DNA of 64,000 bases from an uncultured delta proteobacterium (GTDB lineage Bacteria > Desulfobacterota > Binatia > UBA9968): NCBI GenBank assembly GCA_963760795.1, contig CAVXEP010000025.1, forward strand, positions 96,001-160,000. Reading direction: 5' to 3'. This document shows positions 43,626 through 51,372 of this stretch, piece after piece; the first letter of the stretch is position 1; the number at the start of each line of letters is the position of its first letter. Both the position numbers and the translations under genes were made by a program. The notes beneath the pieces are model-generated. The model was not told where the DNA came from. It did not search any database and saw only the letters and a program-made list of their open reading frames with translations.

Positions 43626-44252
43626 TCATCCCCCGACCCTTGGTCTGTTCGCGGCCTGGGATTTTTTGTTGGCGAGTTTTTCCGGCTCGATCTTGGTCTT
43701 GACATCACGCACCATGCGAATCTTCTTCCCCTCTAATTCCACTTCCATGCTCGCTCCCTCAATTGAAATGCCTTCGCCGATGACCTGGGTTCGGCTTGGT
43801 AACGAGATCTGCTCCTTGGCGGGTAGATAGTTGGCTGCGTCCGAAGTCAGGACATAACCCTTCATAGCGACCCGGACACCGCCCTTGAGTTCCAACCGTT
43901 CGAGCTCCTTCTCGTTCAGGAAAACATGAGCCACTTCAGCCGAAGTTTCCGCCGCCTCATCCTTCTTATCGTAATACAGGAACCGTGGACGCGTGATTAC
44001 AGCTTCCCGCTTGTCCTTCTGGTAACTCGCCTCGTCGCCGAAAAGCTCCCATACCTTGCGGCCGTTCTCGATCTTGGCGCGATGAAAATCCTTGATCTGC
44101 AACACGGTATCTGGCAAGGCATCGAGGACAGCGACAGGATTTTTTACGTCAACTTTCATCATCTTCTGCACGACCTCGGCGACCTTGAAAGCCACCCCGC
44201 CGAGAGAAAGAAGAATCACCGAAAGTAAGATAGCCCGTCTGGTTTTGCGCAT
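43626..44252 (-). CDS. lptC: LPS export protein LptC
   Basis: N-terminal TM anchor; GRKVWEL, beta-jellyroll-like pattern; synteny. Confidence 0.85.
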   Translation of the reverse strand: MRKTRRAILLSVILLSLGGVAFKVAEVVQKMMKVDVKNPVAVLDALPDTVLQIKDFHRAKIENGRKVWELFGDEASYQKDKREAVITRPRFLYYDKKDEAAETSAEVAHVFLNEKELERLELKGGVRVAMKGYVLTSDAANYLPAKEQISLPSRTQVIGEGISIEGASMEVELEGKKIRMVRDVKTKIEPEKLANKKSQAANRPRVGG

Positions 44253-44276
44253 AATCAGTTCAGCAAAGTAGATGCA

Positions 44277-44305
44277 AAAATACCACTCTTACGAATTCCT
44301 GTAAA
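44277..44305 (-). promoter_or_regulatory. Putative sigma70 promoter of lptC-lptA-lptB-rpoN
   Basis: Minus strand TTTACA-17 nt-TATTTT with extended -10 TG. Confidence 0.55.
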
Positions 44306-44309
44306 GGAA

Positions 44310-44326
44310 TAGGCACGATATTTGCT
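44310..44326 (+). promoter_or_regulatory. Sigma54 (-24/-12) binding site, inverted relative to the rpoN operon
   Basis: TAGGCACGATATTTGCT = GG-N10-GC, close to consensus TGGCACG-N4-TTGC. Confidence 0.7.
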
Positions 44327-44365
44327 TTGCAAAGAGGTAAACTGCTGGAGTAATTAAGGATTTGC

Positions 44366-44893
44366 TTAAAGAGGCAGTAAGTCCGACCATTTATTCTGGG
44401 CTTTAAGGATCAACTCGGCGACGTCGCGTACGGCACCCATGCCGCCCCTAGCCACGGTAACGTAGTCAGCAAGCGGCTTGAGTTCTGCCGAACCATCGCC
44501 AACCACTACCGCCAACCCCACCCGCCGCAGCACCGGTAAATCGATGATGTCGTCGCCAACATAGGCAATTTGTGCGTCGGTCAGGCGGCGCTTCTTTTTG
44601 ATCCGTTCATAGACCCGCAGCTTGTCCTGCACACCTTGGAATAACAGCGTGACCCGCAGATCGTTAGCGCGGTGGCGGACGACGCGAGACGATCGTCCGG
44701 TGATAAAACCTACCTCGATACCGCTACGTTTCAACAATGAGATTCCCAGACCGTCGCGGACGTGAAAATGTTTGGTCTCGACACCGCGGTCGTCGATGAT
44801 GATGCGCCCGTCGGTGAGCACACCATCGACGTCCAACAGCAGCAGGCGAATGTTCGCCGCCTTTCGGCGCAGCGAGGCTGGTTTGGTTTTCAC
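44366..44893 (-). CDS. kdsC: KDO 8-phosphate phosphatase
   Basis: LLLDVDGVLTDG, FHVRDGLG, ITGR, YVGDDIIDLP, GG.GAVR. Confidence 0.95.
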   Translation of the reverse strand: MKTKPASLRRKAANIRLLLLDVDGVLTDGRIIIDDRGVETKHFHVRDGLGISLLKRSGIEVGFITGRSSRVVRHRANDLRVTLLFQGVQDKLRVYERIKKKRRLTDAQIAYVGDDIIDLPVLRRVGLAVVVGDGSAELKPLADYVTVARGGMGAVRDVAELILKAQNKWSDLLPL

Positions 44894-44902
44894 TGCGAGA
44901 CG

Positions 44903-45874
44903 CTAAAGGCCGGCTTTGACCAAATCGTGCAAGTGAACGATGCCGACCGGATTCTTGGTCTCATGTTCAAGCACGAATAAAGAAGTTATCGAAAATTTTT
45001 CCATGACCGCGACCGCCTCGCTCGCCAAAGTGTCGGCGGGAATAGTTTTGGGATTATGCGTCATTAAATCTCTCGCCGGCAGGGAGAGAATCTGCCCCTT
45101 GTTCTCCAACCCTCGCCGTAAATCACCGTCGGTCAGAATACCGACGAGCTGATGGTTTTCGTTGGTTACTCCGGTGACGCCGAGGCGCTTCGCGGTGATC
45201 TCGAACAGCGCTTCCTTTACACTGGTGGTCTCACGAACCAAAGGCAATCGCGCGCCGCGGAACATCAAATCTTCAACCCGCAAGAGCAGCTTGCGGCCGA
45301 GGATACCGCCGGGATGGCGCATGGCGAAGTCCGCTTGATTGAAGCCTTTCTGCTCGAGTAAAACCACCGCGAGGGCGTCGCCCATGGCCATGGCGACCGT
45401 GGTGCTGGTGGTCGGCGCCAGGCCGAGGGGACCGGCCTCCTCCTTGACGCTAACGTTAAGCACCAGTTCACCCGCTTGCGCGAGAGTCGACTCCGGATTG
45501 CCGGTGATCACGATCAGCTTAAGGCCATGATGTTTGAAATGGGGCAGTAGCTTGAGAATTTCATCGGTCTCGCCGCTATTGGAAACCGCAACCACGATAT
45601 CGTCCGGCATCACCATACCGAGATCGCCGTGCACAGCGTCGCCGGAATGGAGATAAAATGCCGGCGTGCCGGTGCTCGACAAGGTCGCGGCGATTTTGGC
45701 GCAGATCAGGCCCGATTTGCCGACGCCGGTCACCACCACCTTACCCTTGCAGCCTTGCATCAGCTCGACCGCGCGGACGAAATTTTCATCCAGGTGGTCG
45801 ATGACGGACAACAGCCCTTGGGCCTCCATCCGCAAAACCTCGGCGGCACGACTGAGAACGGTTTGCTTGTTCAC
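44903..45874 (-). CDS. kdsD: Arabinose-5-phosphate isomerase (KpsF/GutQ, SIS + CBS)
   Basis: VTGVGKSG, STGTPA, HGDLGM, SNSGET, LAPTTST, HPGG.LG, TDGDLRR. Confidence 0.95.
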   Translation of the reverse strand: MNKQTVLSRAAEVLRMEAQGLLSVIDHLDENFVRAVELMQGCKGKVVVTGVGKSGLICAKIAATLSSTGTPAFYLHSGDAVHGDLGMVMPDDIVVAVSNSGETDEILKLLPHFKHHGLKLIVITGNPESTLAQAGELVLNVSVKEEAGPLGLAPTTSTTVAMAMGDALAVVLLEQKGFNQADFAMRHPGGILGRKLLLRVEDLMFRGARLPLVRETTSVKEALFEITAKRLGVTGVTNENHQLVGILTDGDLRRGLENKGQILSLPARDLMTHNPKTIPADTLASEAVAVMEKFSITSLFVLEHETKNPVGIVHLHDLVKAGL

Positions 45875-45878
45875 GGTA

Positions 45879-46706
45879 TCAAAGCCCTTTGACCAGAGCG
45901 TCGATCTCCTTGACCTTGCGGAGCAGGGCTTCAAAGTTTTCCAGCGCCAAAGAATTGGGCCCATCGCTCAACGCTTGGTCAGGGTTCTCATGCACTTCCA
46001 TGAATAGAGCATCGATGCCGGTGGCGACTCCGGCGCGCGCCAGGGCCGGAATATACTTGCGCTCACCGCCGGAAGCATTGCCCAAACCGCCCGGCAGCTG
46101 CAAACTATGAGTCGCGTCAAAGACCACGGGATAGCCCATTTCGCGCATTACCACGAGGGAGCGCATATCGGATACTAAATTATTATAGCCAAATGACGCG
46201 CCGCGCTCGGTGACGAGGATCTGCTGATTACCGGTGGAGAGAATCTTGTCGATGACGTTGCGCATGTCCCAGGGCGCGAGGAATTGCCCCTTCTTGACGT
46301 TGACGACTCTGCCGGACTGGGCCACCGCGGCAACGAAATCGGTCTGGCGGCACAGGAACGCCGGGATTTGCAGAATGTCGGCAACCTCTTTGACCGCCGC
46401 CACTTGAGCGCTTTCATGCACATCGGTGAGCACCGGCACGCCAATCTTTGCTTTGACTTCGGCAAGAATCGCCAAGCCCTGATCGAGACCGAGCCCGCGA
46501 AACGAATCGGCCGAGCTGCGATTAGCCTTGTCGTAGGACGCCTTGAAAATATACGGCACGCCGACGCGGTCGGCGCGTTCTTTGAGCGCCGCAGCGTGGC
46601 GCAGTGCCGATTCCTTGCTTTCGATAACGCAAGGCCCAGCAATCACCGCCAGCGGTCCGTCAGCGCCGATCGCTACGTTACCGATCTTAATCAATCTCGT
46701 GGGCAT
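45879..46706 (-). CDS. kdsA: KDO 8-phosphate synthase
   Basis: IAGPCVIES, KASYDKANRSS, QIPAFLCRQTD, NVKKGQF, FDATHS, SDGPN. Confidence 0.97.
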   Translation of the reverse strand: MPTRLIKIGNVAIGADGPLAVIAGPCVIESKESALRHAAALKERADRVGVPYIFKASYDKANRSSADSFRGLGLDQGLAILAEVKAKIGVPVLTDVHESAQVAAVKEVADILQIPAFLCRQTDFVAAVAQSGRVVNVKKGQFLAPWDMRNVIDKILSTGNQQILVTERGASFGYNNLVSDMRSLVVMREMGYPVVFDATHSLQLPGGLGNASGGERKYIPALARAGVATGIDALFMEVHENPDQALSDGPNSLALENFEALLRKVKEIDALVKGL

Positions 46707-46726: not shown

Positions 46727-48382
<1,656 letters not shown>

Positions 48383-49157
48383 TCAGTTCGAACGTCGCTT
48401 CAAATAACTCTCCGCCCGCAGGAGATCGGCTGGTGTATCCACCTCCACCGACCGCTCGTCGACCTGCGCGACGTAAATACTATAGCCGTTTTCCAAGGCG
48501 CGTAACTGTTCCAAACTTTCAATTTGCTCCAACGCGGTCGGCCGCAGCCGGGCGAATTTCAATAGGAAATCCCGCCGATAAACATATAGGCCGAGATGAC
48601 GATAGCCCCAAAGTCGGCGCTGATTCCGCCCAGCAATCTTTTTGCCGTTGGGATCAATGCCGTCATTGCGCCGGAAAGGTATTGGCGCCCGGGTAAAAAA
48701 CAACGCCAACCTGGCCCTGTCTGTGAGCACTTTCACGATATTCGGATTGCGCCATTCGGACTCATGGTAAATCGCCGTGCATACCGTGCCCATCGGGATA
48801 TCGCGATTGCGCCGCAACGGCTGCACCGCCTGACCAATCGTTTTGGCGCTAATAAACGGCAAATCGCCCTGGACGTTCACCAGCAGTTCGGCCTTGATCT
48901 TGCGCGCCACCTCGGCCAAACGGTCGGTGCCGCTGTTATGACCGGCTGAGGTCATCACAACTTCGCCGCCGAATCCTTTCACCACCGCTTCAATGCGCCG
49001 ATCGTCGGTGGCGACGATCACCCGGTCCAGCACTTTAGCCTTTGCCGCGTTCTCGTAGACATGTTGAATCATCGGCCGGCCGCCGATTTGAGCTAAGGGC
49101 TTAGCCCGGCAGCCGGGTCGATCCAAAGCGCGCCGGGATAATCGCCACAACGCTCAT
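48383..49157 (-). CDS. kdsB: 3-deoxy-manno-octulosonate cytidylyltransferase; frameshifted near the 5' end as sequenced
   Basis: ATG 49157 MSVVAIIPARFGSTRLPG, extra base near 49103, then KPLAQIGGRPMIQHV, VATDD, SGTDR, NVQGD, LEQLRALENG. Confidence 0.93.
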
Positions 49158-49222
49158 GGACTCACGATTTCGCGGATGCAGTGATCAATCGATTGAATGG
49201 TTAGTGCTGGCATGGCGTCGCC

Positions 49223-49266
49223 AAAAACAAAAAACCGCAATGGCTTTCCCGGAAAGCGCATTACGG
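49223..49266 (-). terminator. Intrinsic terminator/attenuator in the kdsB-pyrG leader
   Basis: Minus strand CCGTAATG-C-GCTTTC-CGG-GAAAGC-CATTGCGG then TTTTTTGTTTTT; no minus-strand gene ends upstream of it. Confidence 0.75.
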
Positions 49267-49272
49267 AATTCG

Positions 49273-49301
49273 ATAATACGCTGGCAGGTAAAAGCTGTCA
49301 A
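49273..49301 (-). promoter_or_regulatory. Near-consensus sigma70 promoter of the kdsB-pyrG-kdsA operon
   Basis: TTGACA(49301-49296)-17 nt-TATTAT(49278-49273). Confidence 0.8.
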
Positions 49302-49434
49302 CGCGAATCGCGCAATCAAGCGCACGCTGACGAAGAAATTTAACCGCGCGAAAGAGTCGATCCATCGGCGCTTGACTGATCGAGGCACAGTCGTGATAGG
49401 AATGAGGTAAGATCTGCAGAATAGGAAATTGCTC

Positions 49435-50361
49435 ATGGCAGAACTAATCAAAATCAAAGCGGGCTTCGCCACCGTCGGCCAAGGCGCAGGGCCGATGATG
49501 GTCACCTGGAAAGCCGGATTGTTTCGCAAGCATGGCCTCGATGTCGACCGGCCGCCGGTGATGGGCGGCGCCAAGGGTGTGGTACGCGGCTTGATGTCGG
49601 GAGATATCCAGTTTGGCAACCTGGCGGCGCCGGCGCCGCTGCGAGCCAATCTCAAGGGCGAAGCCGATGTGGTTTTCCTCACCGGCGGCATCAATCAGCA
49701 ATTTCTAGTCGGACGCCCAGGCATCAATAGCCGAGAAGAACTGTCCGGCAAGAAAATCGGCACGGTCAATGACGGCGGCATCGGCGATGCGCTGGTGAAG
49801 TTCGTCGTCGCCAAACTCGACGCCGCCGGCGTCAAAGGCCTGCAAGAAGTGACCATCGGCCATGGCGCCGAGGCAGAAATGGCGGCTTTGCTCAGCGGCA
49901 CGGTCGATGTCGTCGTCGGCACACCGCCGGAATGCATCGACGCCATCCGCCATGGCTGCAAGTATTTGATCGACTTTGCCGAATACGGGCTTAACTATGC
50001 CCTGGGCGGCATCGCCGGACGGCGCGATTATATCGAGAAAAATCCCGAGATCACCGGTCAGTTCGTCAAAGCCTATGTCGAAGGCATGCATCGTTACCGC
50101 ACCGACCGGGAATTCACCGTCGATGTCCAGGCCGACTACAGCGGCATCGCCGACCGGACGATTGCTGAAGAAACCTACGACCTCACCCAACCCGGCATGC
50201 CGCGCGCTCCCTACCCGGTGGTCGCCTCACTGCAAACCCTGCTCGATTTCATGGCCAAGGAGTTACCCGAAGCCCGCGGCGCCGACGCCAGGAAATTCGT
50301 CGACGACCGCTTTATCCGGGAACTGGAAGACAACGGCTTCATCGCTTCTTTAGGGAGGTAA
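49435..50361 (+). CDS. ABC transporter substrate-binding protein (SsuA/NMT1/THI5-like)
   Basis: GLFRKHGLDV, LMSGDIQF, LSGKKIG, ALLSGTVD, FVKAYVEG, KFVDDRFIRELE; no obvious signal peptide. Confidence 0.82.
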   Translation: MAELIKIKAGFATVGQGAGPMMVTWKAGLFRKHGLDVDRPPVMGGAKGVVRGLMSGDIQFGNLAAPAPLRANLKGEADVVFLTGGINQQFLVGRPGINSREELSGKKIGTVNDGGIGDALVKFVVAKLDAAGVKGLQEVTIGHGAEAEMAALLSGTVDVVVGTPPECIDAIRHGCKYLIDFAEYGLNYALGGIAGRRDYIEKNPEITGQFVKAYVEGMHRYRTDREFTVDVQADYSGIADRTIAEETYDLTQPGMPRAPYPVVASLQTLLDFMAKELPEARGADARKFVDDRFIRELEDNGFIASLGR

Positions 50362-50367
50362 TTCCAG

Positions 50368-51372
50368 ATGGCCAAGCTCGGCTCAAGCTTCGTTATTTTG
50401 TTGTGGCTGGCGCTCTCCGCAGCAAACGTCAGCGCCGCAACCAACGATAGCTTGATCGACGCCGCCAAGCGCGAGGGCGAGCTGGTCTACTACGCGTCGA
50501 TGAACCTCGCCGAAGCCAACGCGATCATCGGTGAATTCGAGAAGCGTTATCCATTCATTAAAGTAAGACTGCACCGCACCGGCAGCGAAAAGCTACTGAC
50601 CCGAGTCTTGACCGAGTACCGCGCCAAAAAAATCTTCGCCGACATCATTCAGACCGTCGAGTTCAGCATGCATATTTTCAATCGCAGCGGCGTCCTGGCG
50701 CGCTACCTGCCGCAATCGAACGCTTTGTACTCGAAAGACTTCAAGGAAGAAGGTTTTTGGACGACCGTCTATTACAACGCCTACGTGACCGCCTACAACA
50801 CCCGCCTGGTGCCGGCGCGCCAGTTGGCGAAATCCTATGACGACCTGCTCGATAGTAAATGGAAGGGCAAGCTCTTGATGGAGGGCACCAAGGCCGATTG
50901 GTTCGCCGGCATGTTGCAAATTCTTGGACCGGAGCGCGGGCTCAAATACATGCGCGAACTCGCCAAACAACAGCCGAGCCCGCGCGAAGGCCATGAGCTC
51001 TTGGCGCAGTTGGTCGTCGCCGGCGAAGGCGTCTACGATATCAATATTCCCGTGTCATCGGTGGAGCGCATGAAGGAACGCGGCGCGCCCATCGACTGGA
51101 CTGCGCTGGGCCCGGTGCCGGCGATCATGGTCGGCGCCGGCATTGCGACTGGCGCGCCCCATCCCAACGCGGCCAAGTTATTTTTAGAATTCGTCCTGTC
51201 GCGCGAGGGGCAGAAGCTCATGGGGACCCCCGGCCGCCATATCGCCCGCGGCGACCTCGCCAACGAGCAGGCAGCGATGCTTAAAGATTTGAAAATCGTC
51301 CCGGTCAATCCGGCGCTGGCGGAAAAACTCGACGAGTACGCCAAGCAGATGCGCGGGATTTTTGGCGGGTAG
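50368..51372 (+). CDS. ABC transporter extracellular solute-binding protein (AfuA-like)
   Basis: Signal peptide; AAKREGELVYY, FEKRYP, DLLDSKWKGK, APHPNAAKLFLEFVLSREGQ. Confidence 0.88.
   Translation: MAKLGSSFVILLWLALSAANVSAATNDSLIDAAKREGELVYYASMNLAEANAIIGEFEKRYPFIKVRLHRTGSEKLLTRVLTEYRAKKIFADIIQTVEFSMHIFNRSGVLARYLPQSNALYSKDFKEEGFWTTVYYNAYVTAYNTRLVPARQLAKSYDDLLDSKWKGKLLMEGTKADWFAGMLQILGPERGLKYMRELAKQQPSPREGHELLAQLVVAGEGVYDINIPVSSVERMKERGAPIDWTALGPVPAIMVGAGIATGAPHPNAAKLFLEFVLSREGQKLMGTPGRHIARGDLANEQAAMLKDLKIVPVNPALAEKLDEYAKQMRGIFGG

What the first reader, a model, noticed from the sequence alone, without database searches (positions are those of the whole stretch)
49158..49301. Possible CTP-sensing switch: pyrC-type TCCG start region fused to an intrinsic terminator ahead of kdsB-pyrG
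Seen: TTGACA-17-TATTAT, followed by C1 G2 A3 A4 T5 T6 C7 C8 G9. C7-C8-G9 (49266-49264) are the first bases of a 14-bp hairpin whose 3' arm ends CGG directly before U6-G-U5, about 65 nt upstream of the kdsB ATG. Established: at enteric pyrC, T6-C7-C8-G9 start-site selection senses CTP/GTP (C7 at high CTP, G9 at low) and controls a translation-blocking hairpin; Bacillus pyrG uses CTP-sensitive reiterative transcription to control a leader terminator. Inference: a hybrid in which C7 starts complete the terminator base and stop transcription, while G9 starts lose two G:C pairs and read through into CTP synthase and the CTP-consuming KdsB. Caveat: a 12-bp stem would remain, so the effect could be partial; a constitutive ~40-nt sRNA is an alternative.
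Basis: partly seen in the sequence, partly recalled or inferred. Interest (0 to 1): 0.8.

Follow-up and report, generated by a model that had tools for sequence, protein, structure and literature searches.

The report
Conserved promoter-terminator switch before kdsB-pyrG
A near-perfect promoter whose transcripts begin at the foot of a strong terminator hairpin sits ahead of the Kdo/CTP-synthase operon in two families of uncultured soil bacteria, and it may sense CTP through the choice of start nucleotide, though that is untested.

Summary
On the minus strand, TTGACA-17-TATTAT is followed 6 nt later by a 14-bp hairpin (-17.1 kcal/mol, z -4.6), then U6-G-U5. The kdsB ATG lies 65 nt further on, followed by pyrG, kdsA, kdsD, kdsC and lptC.

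The element is real and under strong selection. It occurs once per genome, always upstream of kdsB on the same strand. I collected 47 distinct versions from two families. It was not found in the third family of the order or in 16 other families of the class.

The promoter hexamers, A3, A4, T6-C7-C8-G9, both stem arms and the U tract are almost invariant. The spacer, the loop and the flanks vary freely. Stem changes are G:U-tolerant and compensatory, so the hairpin acts as RNA. The stem foot is at position 7 after the -10 box in 47 of 47, the same TCCG register as E. coli pyrC.

No upstream RNA is available to form an antiterminator, and Rfam has no match. A G9 start costs 4.0 kcal/mol and leaves two unpaired G before the U tract.

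I conclude that this is a promoter-proximal attenuator. Start-site (CTP/GTP) sensing is the most economical sensor, but it is inferred, and the read data did not resolve the start site.

The parts
49296..49301 (-). -35 hexamer TTGACA
   Evidence: TTGAC is invariant in 47 of 47 versions and the final A is at least 90% conserved.
49273..49278 (-). -10 hexamer TATTAT, 17-nt spacer
   Evidence: The T, A and final T are invariant in 47 of 47 versions. The spacer is 17 nt in 44 and 18 nt in 3, and its sequence is not conserved.
49264..49272 (-). Start region C1 G2 A3 A4 T5 T6 C7 C8 G9; the predicted start sites are C7 (49266), C8 (49265) and G9 (49264)
   Evidence: A3 is present in 47 of 47 versions, A4 in 45, T6 in 44, and C7, C8 and G9 in 47. 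The register is the same as TCCG in E. coli pyrC. The start sites are inferred, not mapped.
49235..49266 (-). Terminator hairpin: 5' arm 49266-49252 (bulged C at 49258), loop 49251-49249, 3' arm 49248-49235
   Evidence: The hairpin folds at -17.1 kcal/mol with z -4.64. Over 47 versions, 96.2% of cells are paired, against 38.6-47.9% when the partners are slid. Five pairs carry compensatory changes, and the one-sided changes are G:U-tolerant.
49223..49234 (-). U tract T6-G-T5
   Evidence: In 47 versions a run of 6-8 U (first base C in some) is interrupted by A in 35, G in 9 or C in 3, then followed by 1-6 more U.
49158..49222 (-). Variable 65-nt leader between the terminator and the kdsB ATG
   Evidence: The sequence is not conserved beyond close relatives. 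The length is mostly 57-68 nt. No promoter-like site is found in it.
48383..49157 (-). kdsB (CMP-Kdo synthetase), split in this assembly by one extra base near 49105
   Evidence: NCBIfam matches start at profile position 18 for the ORF 48383-49150. The ATG frame gives MSVVAIIPARFGSTRLPG followed by a stop. The extra base is absent from the contigs of 3 of 3 runs that cover the place.
46727..48379 (-). pyrG (CTP synthase)
   Evidence: NF003792 matches at E 1e-259. pyrG lies directly downstream of kdsB in 46 of 46 loci with room downstream.
43626..46706 (-). kdsA, kdsD (start uncertain), kdsC and lptC, the rest of the operon
   Evidence: NCBIfam matches.

Best explanation
This is a promoter-proximal transcription attenuator for the kdsB-pyrG-kdsA-kdsD-kdsC-lptC operon.

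A near-consensus sigma-70-type promoter fires into an RNA whose first nucleotides are the foot of a strong intrinsic terminator. Most transcripts should therefore end as an RNA of about 40-45 nt. The operon is expressed only by read-through.

No RNA lies upstream of the hairpin, so no classical antiterminator can form. The simplest way to set the gate is the 5' end itself.

- Starts at C7 or C8 are favoured when CTP is plentiful. They complete the C-C-G:C-G-G clamp that abuts the U tract, and transcription terminates.
- Starts at G9 are favoured when CTP is low relative to GTP. They lose two G:C pairs and leave two unpaired G between the stem and the U tract. Termination weakens, and more CTP synthase and CTP-using KdsB are made.

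Shown here: the anatomy, the RNA-level structure, the strict linkage to kdsB-pyrG and the invariant register.

Inferred: the start sites, their sensitivity to nucleotide levels, and the effect on termination.

I put about 0.8 on 'cis-acting leader attenuator' and about 0.35 on the full start-site mechanism.
For: 1. Anatomy.

2. Copy number and linkage:
- There is one copy in the genome, by exact pattern and by covariance model at E up to 10.
- All 13 of 13 covariance-model hits in the class sample lie upstream of kdsB on the same strand.
- In the public scan, 20 of 21 contigs have kdsB downstream. The other locus is cut short.

3. Distribution: family f1 10 of 10 genomes, f2 2 of 2, f3 0 of 9, and no hit in any of the 16 other families sampled.

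4. Conservation pattern over 47 distinct versions:
- The hexamers, A3, A4, T6-C7-C8-G9, the stem and the U tract are fixed.
- The spacer, the loop and the flanks are free.

5. RNA structure:
- 96.2% of cells are paired.
- Pair 4 is U:G in 37 and U:A in 10. Pair 5 is G:U in 26, G:C in 13 and A:U in 8.
- The upper stem is replaced by unrelated complementary sequence in L072, L073, L075, L101 and L102.

6. The stem foot is at position 7 after the -10 box in 47 of 47.

7. E. coli pyrC has TCCG at the same distance from its -10 box. At pyrC and pyrD, starts with two extra C occur at a high CTP/GTP ratio and complete a 5' hairpin (passages of PMC6524683).

8. A G9 start costs 4.0 kcal/mol in all 47 versions (mean -16.6 to -12.6) and leaves 2 unpaired nt before the U tract. 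In 26 of 47 the two pairs above the clamp are both G:U wobbles.

9. No other promoter-like site lies between the terminator and kdsB, so essential genes depend on read-through.

10. Precedent: Bacillus pyrG is controlled by a leader terminator and by CTP-dependent changes at the transcript's 5' end (passages of PMC7039003).

11. pyrG follows kdsB in 46 of 46 loci with room downstream.
Against: - No 5'-end or 3'-end data exist. The laid runs were contigs, which cannot show starts.
- One contig from an RNA library (X15, 49221-49385) covers DNA upstream of the predicted start. This means either DNA carry-over or another transcript.
- A 12-bp hairpin of -12.6 kcal/mol on average survives a G9 start, so the effect could be small.
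- The start-site idea does not explain why pairs 4-8 of the stem are conserved in sequence.
- The sister family (genus g3) has a covarying 5' hairpin that also begins at position 7. It starts with G and has no U tract. A 5'-terminal hairpin may therefore matter for this operon for a reason unrelated to CTP.
- Why Kdo and LPS genes should rise when CTP falls is less obvious than for pyrG.
- The bottom three pairs are invariant, so they give no covariation evidence either way.
Confidence: 0.35

Rival explanations
1. The element is an attenuator, but the sensor is something other than start-site choice. One option is UTP-dependent elongation speed through the long U tract: fast passage at high UTP gives read-through and more conversion of UTP to CTP. 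Other options are a protein or chaperone that melts the stem, abortive transcripts identical to the 5' arm competing for the 3' arm, or no signal at all, which would be a fixed leak from a strong promoter.
For: The anatomy and the cis linkage are the same as in the best explanation. The U tract is unusually long and is conserved. The sequence conservation of the lower stem would fit recognition by a factor. Abortive transcripts acting on a terminator have a precedent in phage T7; I saw only the search listing and abstract of PMC2952870. That termination depends on elongation rate is recalled knowledge, not a tool result.
Against: None of these options explains why T6-C7-C8-G9 and the 6-nt distance to the -10 box are fixed in 47 of 47 versions. 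No candidate factor was identified. A fixed leak could be obtained more simply with a weaker promoter.
Confidence: 0.25
2. The product is the point: the element makes an abundant hairpin RNA of about 45 nt that acts in trans as a small RNA or a decoy. kdsB expression by leak-through would be secondary.
For: A strong promoter plus a strong terminator forms a complete transcription unit. The stem is conserved in sequence, not only in structure.
Against: Apart from the U tail, the RNA is hairpin throughout, and the only single-stranded internal part, the loop, is not conserved, so there is no seed region. It is always immediately upstream of kdsB on the same strand while the upstream neighbours differ. 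There is no Rfam match. No other promoter for the essential operon was seen.
Confidence: 0.12
3. The hairpin is chiefly a 5'-terminal stabiliser that protects the operon mRNA from 5'-end-dependent decay, and termination at the U tract is minor.
For: In the sister genus g3 the kdsB-pyrG leader also begins, at position 7 after the -10 box, with a covarying hairpin. Seven of its 15 pairs show compensatory change, and it has no U tract. A contig from an RNA library (X17, 49071-49246) runs from kdsB across the U tract into the 3' arm. This is only a weak hint, because it extends 23 nt beyond the tract, under the tool's 31-nt rule.
Against: The U tract is conserved in all 47 versions, and in 44 it has the purine interruption. 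Sections 6-7 of bioRxiv 10.64898/2026.05.29.728758 associate that interruption with strong termination. A stabiliser does not need a U tract.
Confidence: 0.12
4. The element is a pyrBI-like attenuator coupled to a leader peptide. An ORF starting at the AUG inside the 5' arm (49261) runs through the terminator, and its translation prevents hairpin formation or couples into kdsB.
For: In the window the ORF is 35 codons long and ends in ATGA at the kdsB start. In 28 of 44 versions it stays open to within 4 nt of the kdsB ATG or beyond. In genus g2 a +1 change in the loop and a -1 change in the U tract keep the downstream frame.
Against: Openness is close to chance: 65% observed against about 55% in shuffles, with a cluster-level P of about 0.07. 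There is no Shine-Dalgarno sequence. The AUG is only 3-5 nt from the 5' end and is buried in a -17 kcal/mol stem. There is no room for a ribosome to load before the 3' arm is made. The peptide is not conserved beyond the part fixed by the hairpin. Stops appear early in L032, L033, L052 and L072.
Confidence: 0.06
5. The inverted repeat is a DNA operator for a dimeric repressor that sits just downstream of the promoter.
For: It is a near-perfect palindrome at +1 to +32 with conserved arm sequence.
Against: In 37 of 47 versions pair 4 is T:G, and in 26 of 47 pair 5 is G:T. These pair as RNA but break the DNA palindrome. Arms 14 bp long with a 3-nt centre, followed by a conserved T tract, are the form of a terminator.
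Confidence: 0.03

Closest known systems
Enteric pyrC/pyrD nucleotide-sensitive start-site switching (E. coli, Salmonella)
   Same: The tetranucleotide T6-C7-C8-G9 is the same and sits at the same distance from the -10 box. The two 5'-terminal C are needed to complete a hairpin at the transcript's 5' end (mechanism from passages of PMC6524683).
   Different: At pyrC the hairpin hides the ribosome-binding site and controls translation. Here the hairpin lies 65 nt or more from the kdsB start and is a canonical terminator with a U tract, so the output would be transcription read-through. The genes controlled are different, and the start sites here are not mapped.
Bacillus subtilis pyrG attenuator (CTP-sensitive reiterative transcription)
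   Same: A leader terminator stands ahead of CTP synthase with no upstream alternative structure. The decision is encoded in the transcript's 5' end and is set by CTP at initiation (passages of PMC7039003).
   Different: Bacillus uses a GGGC start and adds extra G residues that pair with the pyrimidine-rich 5' arm. Here the start is CCG with no run of three identical bases, so the proposed change is a shortened 5' end rather than a lengthened one. pyrG is the second gene, after kdsB.
Canonical intrinsic terminators and leader attenuators such as E. coli pyrBI
   Same: A G+C-footed hairpin is followed by a U tract interrupted by a purine. Sections 6-7 of bioRxiv 10.64898/2026.05.29.728758 tie that feature to strong termination.
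   Different: The stem foot is the first transcribed base. There is no convincing leader peptide and no pause region ahead of the hairpin. The last stem bases are C-G-G rather than the G-C preferred in that study.

Membership tests
pyrC/pyrD-type start-site switch | Cluster of pyrimidine and purine start sites (T6-C7-C8-G9) at positions 6-9 after the -10 box | tested here: met
   CGAAT-TCCG follows TATTAT. C7, C8 and G9 are present in 47 of 47 versions and T6 in 44 of 47. E. coli pyrC has 5 nt and then TCCG after TATCCT.
pyrC/pyrD-type start-site switch | The start site moves with the CTP/GTP ratio | not testable with these tools
   The runs were available only as contigs, which cannot show 5' ends.
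pyrC/pyrD-type start-site switch | The two 5'-terminal C complete a hairpin that G-started transcripts cannot complete | tested here: met
   C7:G and C8:G are the bottom pairs in 47 of 47 versions. A G9 start loses 4.0 kcal/mol and leaves 2 unpaired nt.
pyrC/pyrD-type start-site switch | The hairpin sequesters the Shine-Dalgarno sequence of the regulated gene (translational control) | tested here: not met
   The hairpin ends 77 nt before the kdsB ATG and is followed by a U tract.
Bacillus pyrG-type reiterative attenuator | Intrinsic terminator in the leader of a transcript that encodes CTP synthase | tested here: met
   pyrG is directly downstream of kdsB in 46 of 46 loci with room.
Bacillus pyrG-type reiterative attenuator | Initially transcribed run of three G followed by C (GGGC) | tested here: not met
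   The start region is CCG (CCCG in 3 of 47 versions). GGGCTC does occur in 7 of 12 leaders of the sister genus g3.
Intrinsic terminator | Stable G+C-footed hairpin immediately followed by a U-rich tract | tested here: met
   The hairpin folds at -17.1 kcal/mol and is followed by U6-G-U5. The feature is conserved in 47 of 47 versions. Actual termination was not measured.
pyrBI-type leader-peptide attenuation | Translated leader ORF that spans the attenuator | tested here: inconclusive
   An ORF is present (35 codons), but its openness is close to the shuffle expectation (65% against about 55%, P about 0.07). No Shine-Dalgarno sequence is present.
Any Rfam family | Covariance-model match | tested here: not met
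   A cmscan of 48000-50500 at E up to 10 gave 5 chance-level hits, none over the element.
Trans-acting small RNA | Conserved single-stranded seed region | tested here: not met
   The only unpaired internal part is the 3-nt loop, which varies.

The most novel reading that the evidence does not exclude
The transcript's first nucleotide directly gates an intrinsic terminator, which would be a purely polymerase-based CTP sensor.

- C-started RNAs close the terminator's foot and stop.
- G-started RNAs cannot close it and read through into CTP synthase.
- The long U tract may add UTP sensitivity, so that the operon would respond to the UTP/CTP balance without any protein, ribosome or ligand-binding RNA.

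I found no description of start-site control of a terminator. That rests on two full-text searches and on Rfam. Much of the older pyrimidine-regulation literature was not held.
Probability: 0.3. Interest if true: 0.8.

Novelty: new variant of a known kind. Interest (0 to 1): 0.6.

Why it matters
If the mechanism is right, it joins two textbook principles into a new and minimal one. The principles are nucleotide-sensitive start-site choice and leader termination. Gene control would be set by which base the polymerase starts with and read out as termination.

It would be the first regulatory device proposed for CTP synthase and Kdo activation in this large, uncultured group of soil and peat bacteria.

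The whole element is under 100 bp. It uses consensus promoter and terminator parts that E. coli polymerase should recognise, so it can be tested directly in vitro.

Even if the sensor turns out to be different, the element is a well-defined, strongly conserved cis-regulatory RNA that is absent from Rfam.

Tried and rejected
**Rfam.** Nothing was found over the element.

**Sequencing runs.** All 24 listed runs are kept as contigs. I laid 3 RNA-library runs and 1 DNA run, and they gave no 5' or 3' ends.
- The RNA-library contig X17 (49071-49246) crosses the U tract by only 23 nt, under the tool's 31-nt rule.
- X16 stops at 49161.
- X15 has a contig at 49221-49385 that covers the promoter and the DNA upstream of it. 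This is DNA carry-over or another transcript.
- I draw no conclusion on expression, start or termination from these.

**Leader peptide.** The ORF from the AUG at 49261 looked striking at first: 27-36 codons, often ending 1-4 nt before the kdsB ATG. Shuffles show that an open frame of this length is expected about 55% of the time, against 65% observed. My single-linkage clustering lumped 43 of 51 sequences into one cluster, so the cluster-level P of about 0.07 is weak. The stop near the ATG may simply reflect TGA-rich spacers after the Shine-Dalgarno-like GGAG or GAG.

**Second promoter in the 65-nt leader.** None was found by the scan or by eye in relatives.

**Other copies or similar devices in the genome.** None was found.

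**Earlier findings of this scan.** Nothing was returned.

**Papers not held.** The primary pyrC papers and the 2008 and 2011 reviews were not held. The pyrC details therefore rest on one review's passages and on the E. coli sequence itself.

**Limits.** Supplementary files were not consulted. The taxonomic identity of the lineage was not resolved; I have only the depositors' labels.

Full report
**1. The observation**

On the minus strand the window reads TTGACA (49301-49296), a 17-nt spacer, TATTAT (49278-49273) and CGAATT. A hairpin then follows. Its 5' arm is 49266-49252, its loop is 49251-49249, and its 3' arm is 49248-49235. One C is bulged. After the hairpin comes T6-G-T5 (49234-49223), and 65 nt later the kdsB ATG at 49157.

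The promoter scan scores the site 11 of 12, the best in 10 kb. The 32-nt hairpin folds at -17.1 kcal/mol. Its z-score is -4.64, and 0 of 200 shuffles fold as well.

The downstream ORFs are kdsB, pyrG, kdsA, kdsD, kdsC and lptC. The gene on the other side starts at about 49429 on the plus strand, so the hairpin is not the terminator of an upstream gene. On the plus strand it has no T tract.

Rfam has nothing here.

**2. The element is real, single-copy and tied to kdsB**

An exact pattern search finds one copy in the 6.58-Mb genome. So does a covariance model at E up to 10.

Of 907 terminator-like sites genome-wide, only two have a promoter-like site placed so that the -10 box ends 4-9 nt before the stem. 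This is the only one at 11 of 12.

A DNA search of 41 related genomes found the region in 22. In the more distant congeners the match begins at the promoter and runs into kdsB. The DNA upstream of the -35 box is not alignable.

A pattern scan of one genome per species found 21 contigs, all from uncultured MAGs. The depositors label them delta proteobacterium, Syntrophobacter or Syntrophobacteraceae, Candidatus Binatia and a few others. Twenty of the 21 have kdsB just downstream, and the other locus is cut short.

I then searched for kdsB in 61 genomes of the order and read the upstream DNA of the 30 best loci. All 29 loci with enough upstream sequence have the element.

With the covariance model, a sample of 151 genomes of the class gave these results:
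- family f1: 10 of 10 genomes;
- family f2: 2 of 2;
- family f3: 0 of 9;
- 16 other families: no hit in any.

All 13 hits, counting the window's own genome, lie upstream of kdsB on the same strand. These counts describe sampled genomes, so they do not prove absence elsewhere.

pyrG follows kdsB directly in 46 of 46 loci with room downstream.

One row of the alignments (L016, from G004) comes from an unpublished genome. No claim depends on it.

**3. What is conserved**

The alignment holds 47 distinct versions (A1).

Fixed features:
- A3 is invariant, A4 is present in 45 of 47, and T6 in 44 of 47.
- C7, C8, G9 and T10 are invariant.
- Both stem arms are nearly invariant.
- The U tract is conserved. 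In 44 of 47 it is 6-8 U interrupted by a purine and followed by more U.

Free features: the spacer, which is 17 nt in 44 and 18 nt in 3, the loop, and both flanks.

This pattern marks a working sigma-70-type promoter feeding a working terminator.

The stem behaves as RNA. Overall, 96.2% of cells are paired, against 38.6-47.9% when the partners are slid. Pair 4 is U:G in 37 and U:A in 10. Pair 5 is G:U in 26, G:C in 13 and A:U in 8. Five pairs carry double changes.

In the most distant members (L072, L073, L075, L101, L102) the upper stem is replaced by unrelated complementary sequence, while the foot is kept. The G:U pairs would be mismatches on the other strand or in duplex DNA. That argues against a DNA operator and against function on the plus strand.

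The distance from the -10 box to the stem foot is 6 nt in all 47. The first base of the stem is therefore the canonical +1 position.

**4. How it most likely works**

No conserved or predicted promoter lies between the terminator and kdsB. The essential genes of the operon must therefore be expressed by read-through, so this is a leader attenuator.

The transcript has no sequence ahead of the hairpin, which rules out a classical antiterminator. The 5' end, the polymerase, or a factor acting on the stem remain as possible sensors.

The start region is T6-C7-C8-G9. E. coli pyrC has the same four bases at the same distance from its -10 box (the assignment of that -10 box is recalled). At pyrC and pyrD, a high CTP/GTP ratio gives transcripts with two extra 5' C residues that complete a hairpin. 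A low ratio gives G-started transcripts that cannot complete it (passages of PMC6524683).

Here those two C residues are the two bottom pairs of the terminator. A G9 start costs exactly 4.0 kcal/mol in all 47 versions, taking the mean from -16.6 to -12.6. It also leaves two unpaired G between the stem and the U tract. In 26 of 47 versions the two pairs just above the C-C-G clamp are both wobbles, so the clamp carries much of the lower stem's stability.

It is established knowledge that termination is sensitive to the stem reaching the U tract. A recent preprint stresses the bases at the junction of stem and hybrid and a purine-interrupted U tract (sections 6-7 of bioRxiv 10.64898/2026.05.29.728758). 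That G9 transcripts actually read through is my inference.

The regulatory logic fits pyrG: low CTP would give more CTP synthase. Bacillus pyrG is a precedent for a leader terminator controlled by CTP through the transcript's 5' end (passages of PMC7039003).

**5. What speaks against it, and the rivals**

- There are no end-mapping data. All runs were contigs, and one RNA-library contig covers DNA upstream of the predicted start.
- A 12-bp stem remains after a G9 start.
- Start-site sensing does not explain the sequence conservation of pairs 4-8.
- The sister genus g3 also carries kdsB-pyrG (7 of 7 checked). It has its own conserved promoter, and its covarying hairpin also begins at position 7 after the -10 box. 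That hairpin starts with G and has no U tract.

A 5'-terminal hairpin may therefore be the ancestral feature, with termination added in families f1 and f2.

The rivals are these:
- an attenuator with another sensor, such as UTP-dependent passage of the U tract, a factor, or abortive transcripts, or with a fixed leak;
- a 45-nt RNA that acts in trans, which is unlikely because it has no conserved single-stranded part;
- a stabilising 5' hairpin;
- a leader peptide;
- a DNA operator.

The leader ORF starts at the AUG at 49261 and runs 35 codons, ending in ATGA at kdsB. It stays open to near the kdsB start in many versions. Shuffles show that this is close to chance.

**6. Comparison and novelty**

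By sequence and register the element works like the pyrC start region. By position and gene it works like the Bacillus pyrG attenuator. It is a member of neither family:
- the hairpin does not cover a ribosome-binding site;
- the start has no GGGC run.

Two full-text searches found nothing on a kdsB-pyrG leader terminator or on start-site control of a terminator. Much of the older pyrimidine literature is not in the library.

I rate the element as a new variant of a known kind.

**7. Verdict**

| Question | Verdict or score |
|---|---|
| Observation | confirmed |
| Cis-acting leader attenuator | about 0.8 |
| Start-site (CTP/GTP) sensing | about 0.35 |
| Interest | 0.6 |

Noticed in passing
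window 49098-49157 (minus strand), extra base near 49105: kdsB is frameshifted in this assembly. The ATG frame gives MSVVAIIPARFGSTRLPG followed by a stop, and the rest of the protein continues in the +1 frame. The extra base lies in a short G run. It is left out in the contigs of all 3 runs that cover the place, 2 from RNA libraries and 1 from DNA, and in relatives. It is probably an assembly error or a strain-specific lesion, not programmed frameshifting.
   Followed up: partly
window 49183: A second single extra base, in the leader, is absent from 2 of 2 run contigs that cover it and from the closest relatives. It changes the frame of the putative leader ORF.
   Followed up: partly
L004 (G003), kdsB codons about 17-20: A second long-contig genome has a one-base insertion in an A run within 5 nt of the window's frameshift. 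Two independent indels at the same spot could be a systematic sequencing error at a modified motif.
   Followed up: no
L089-L100 (genus g3, family f3), upstream of kdsB: The sister genus has a different conserved leader: TTGACA-17-TATGAT followed by a covarying hairpin that also begins at position 7 after the -10 box and has no U tract. In 7 of 12 leaders the start region reads GGGCTC, the same six bases as the Bacillus subtilis pyrG initially transcribed region quoted in PMC7039003.
   Followed up: partly
window 49154-49261 (minus strand): An ORF of 35 codons starts at an AUG inside the 5' arm, runs through the terminator, and ends in ATGA overlapping the kdsB start. Similar ORFs of 27-36 codons occur in many relatives, but their openness is near chance.
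   Followed up: yes
L075 (G027) and L052 (G048), between terminator and kdsB: Two genomes carry insertions in the leader, leaving about 290 and 200 nt between the U tract and the kdsB ATG instead of about 60. The one in L075 contains a short sequence repeated twice.
   Followed up: no
A1 columns 1-10 (window 49302-49311, minus strand): A partly conserved A/T-rich block with a TC-C core lies directly upstream of the -35 box (consensus roughly AAATTCTCA). It could be an UP-like element or a factor site.
   Followed up: no
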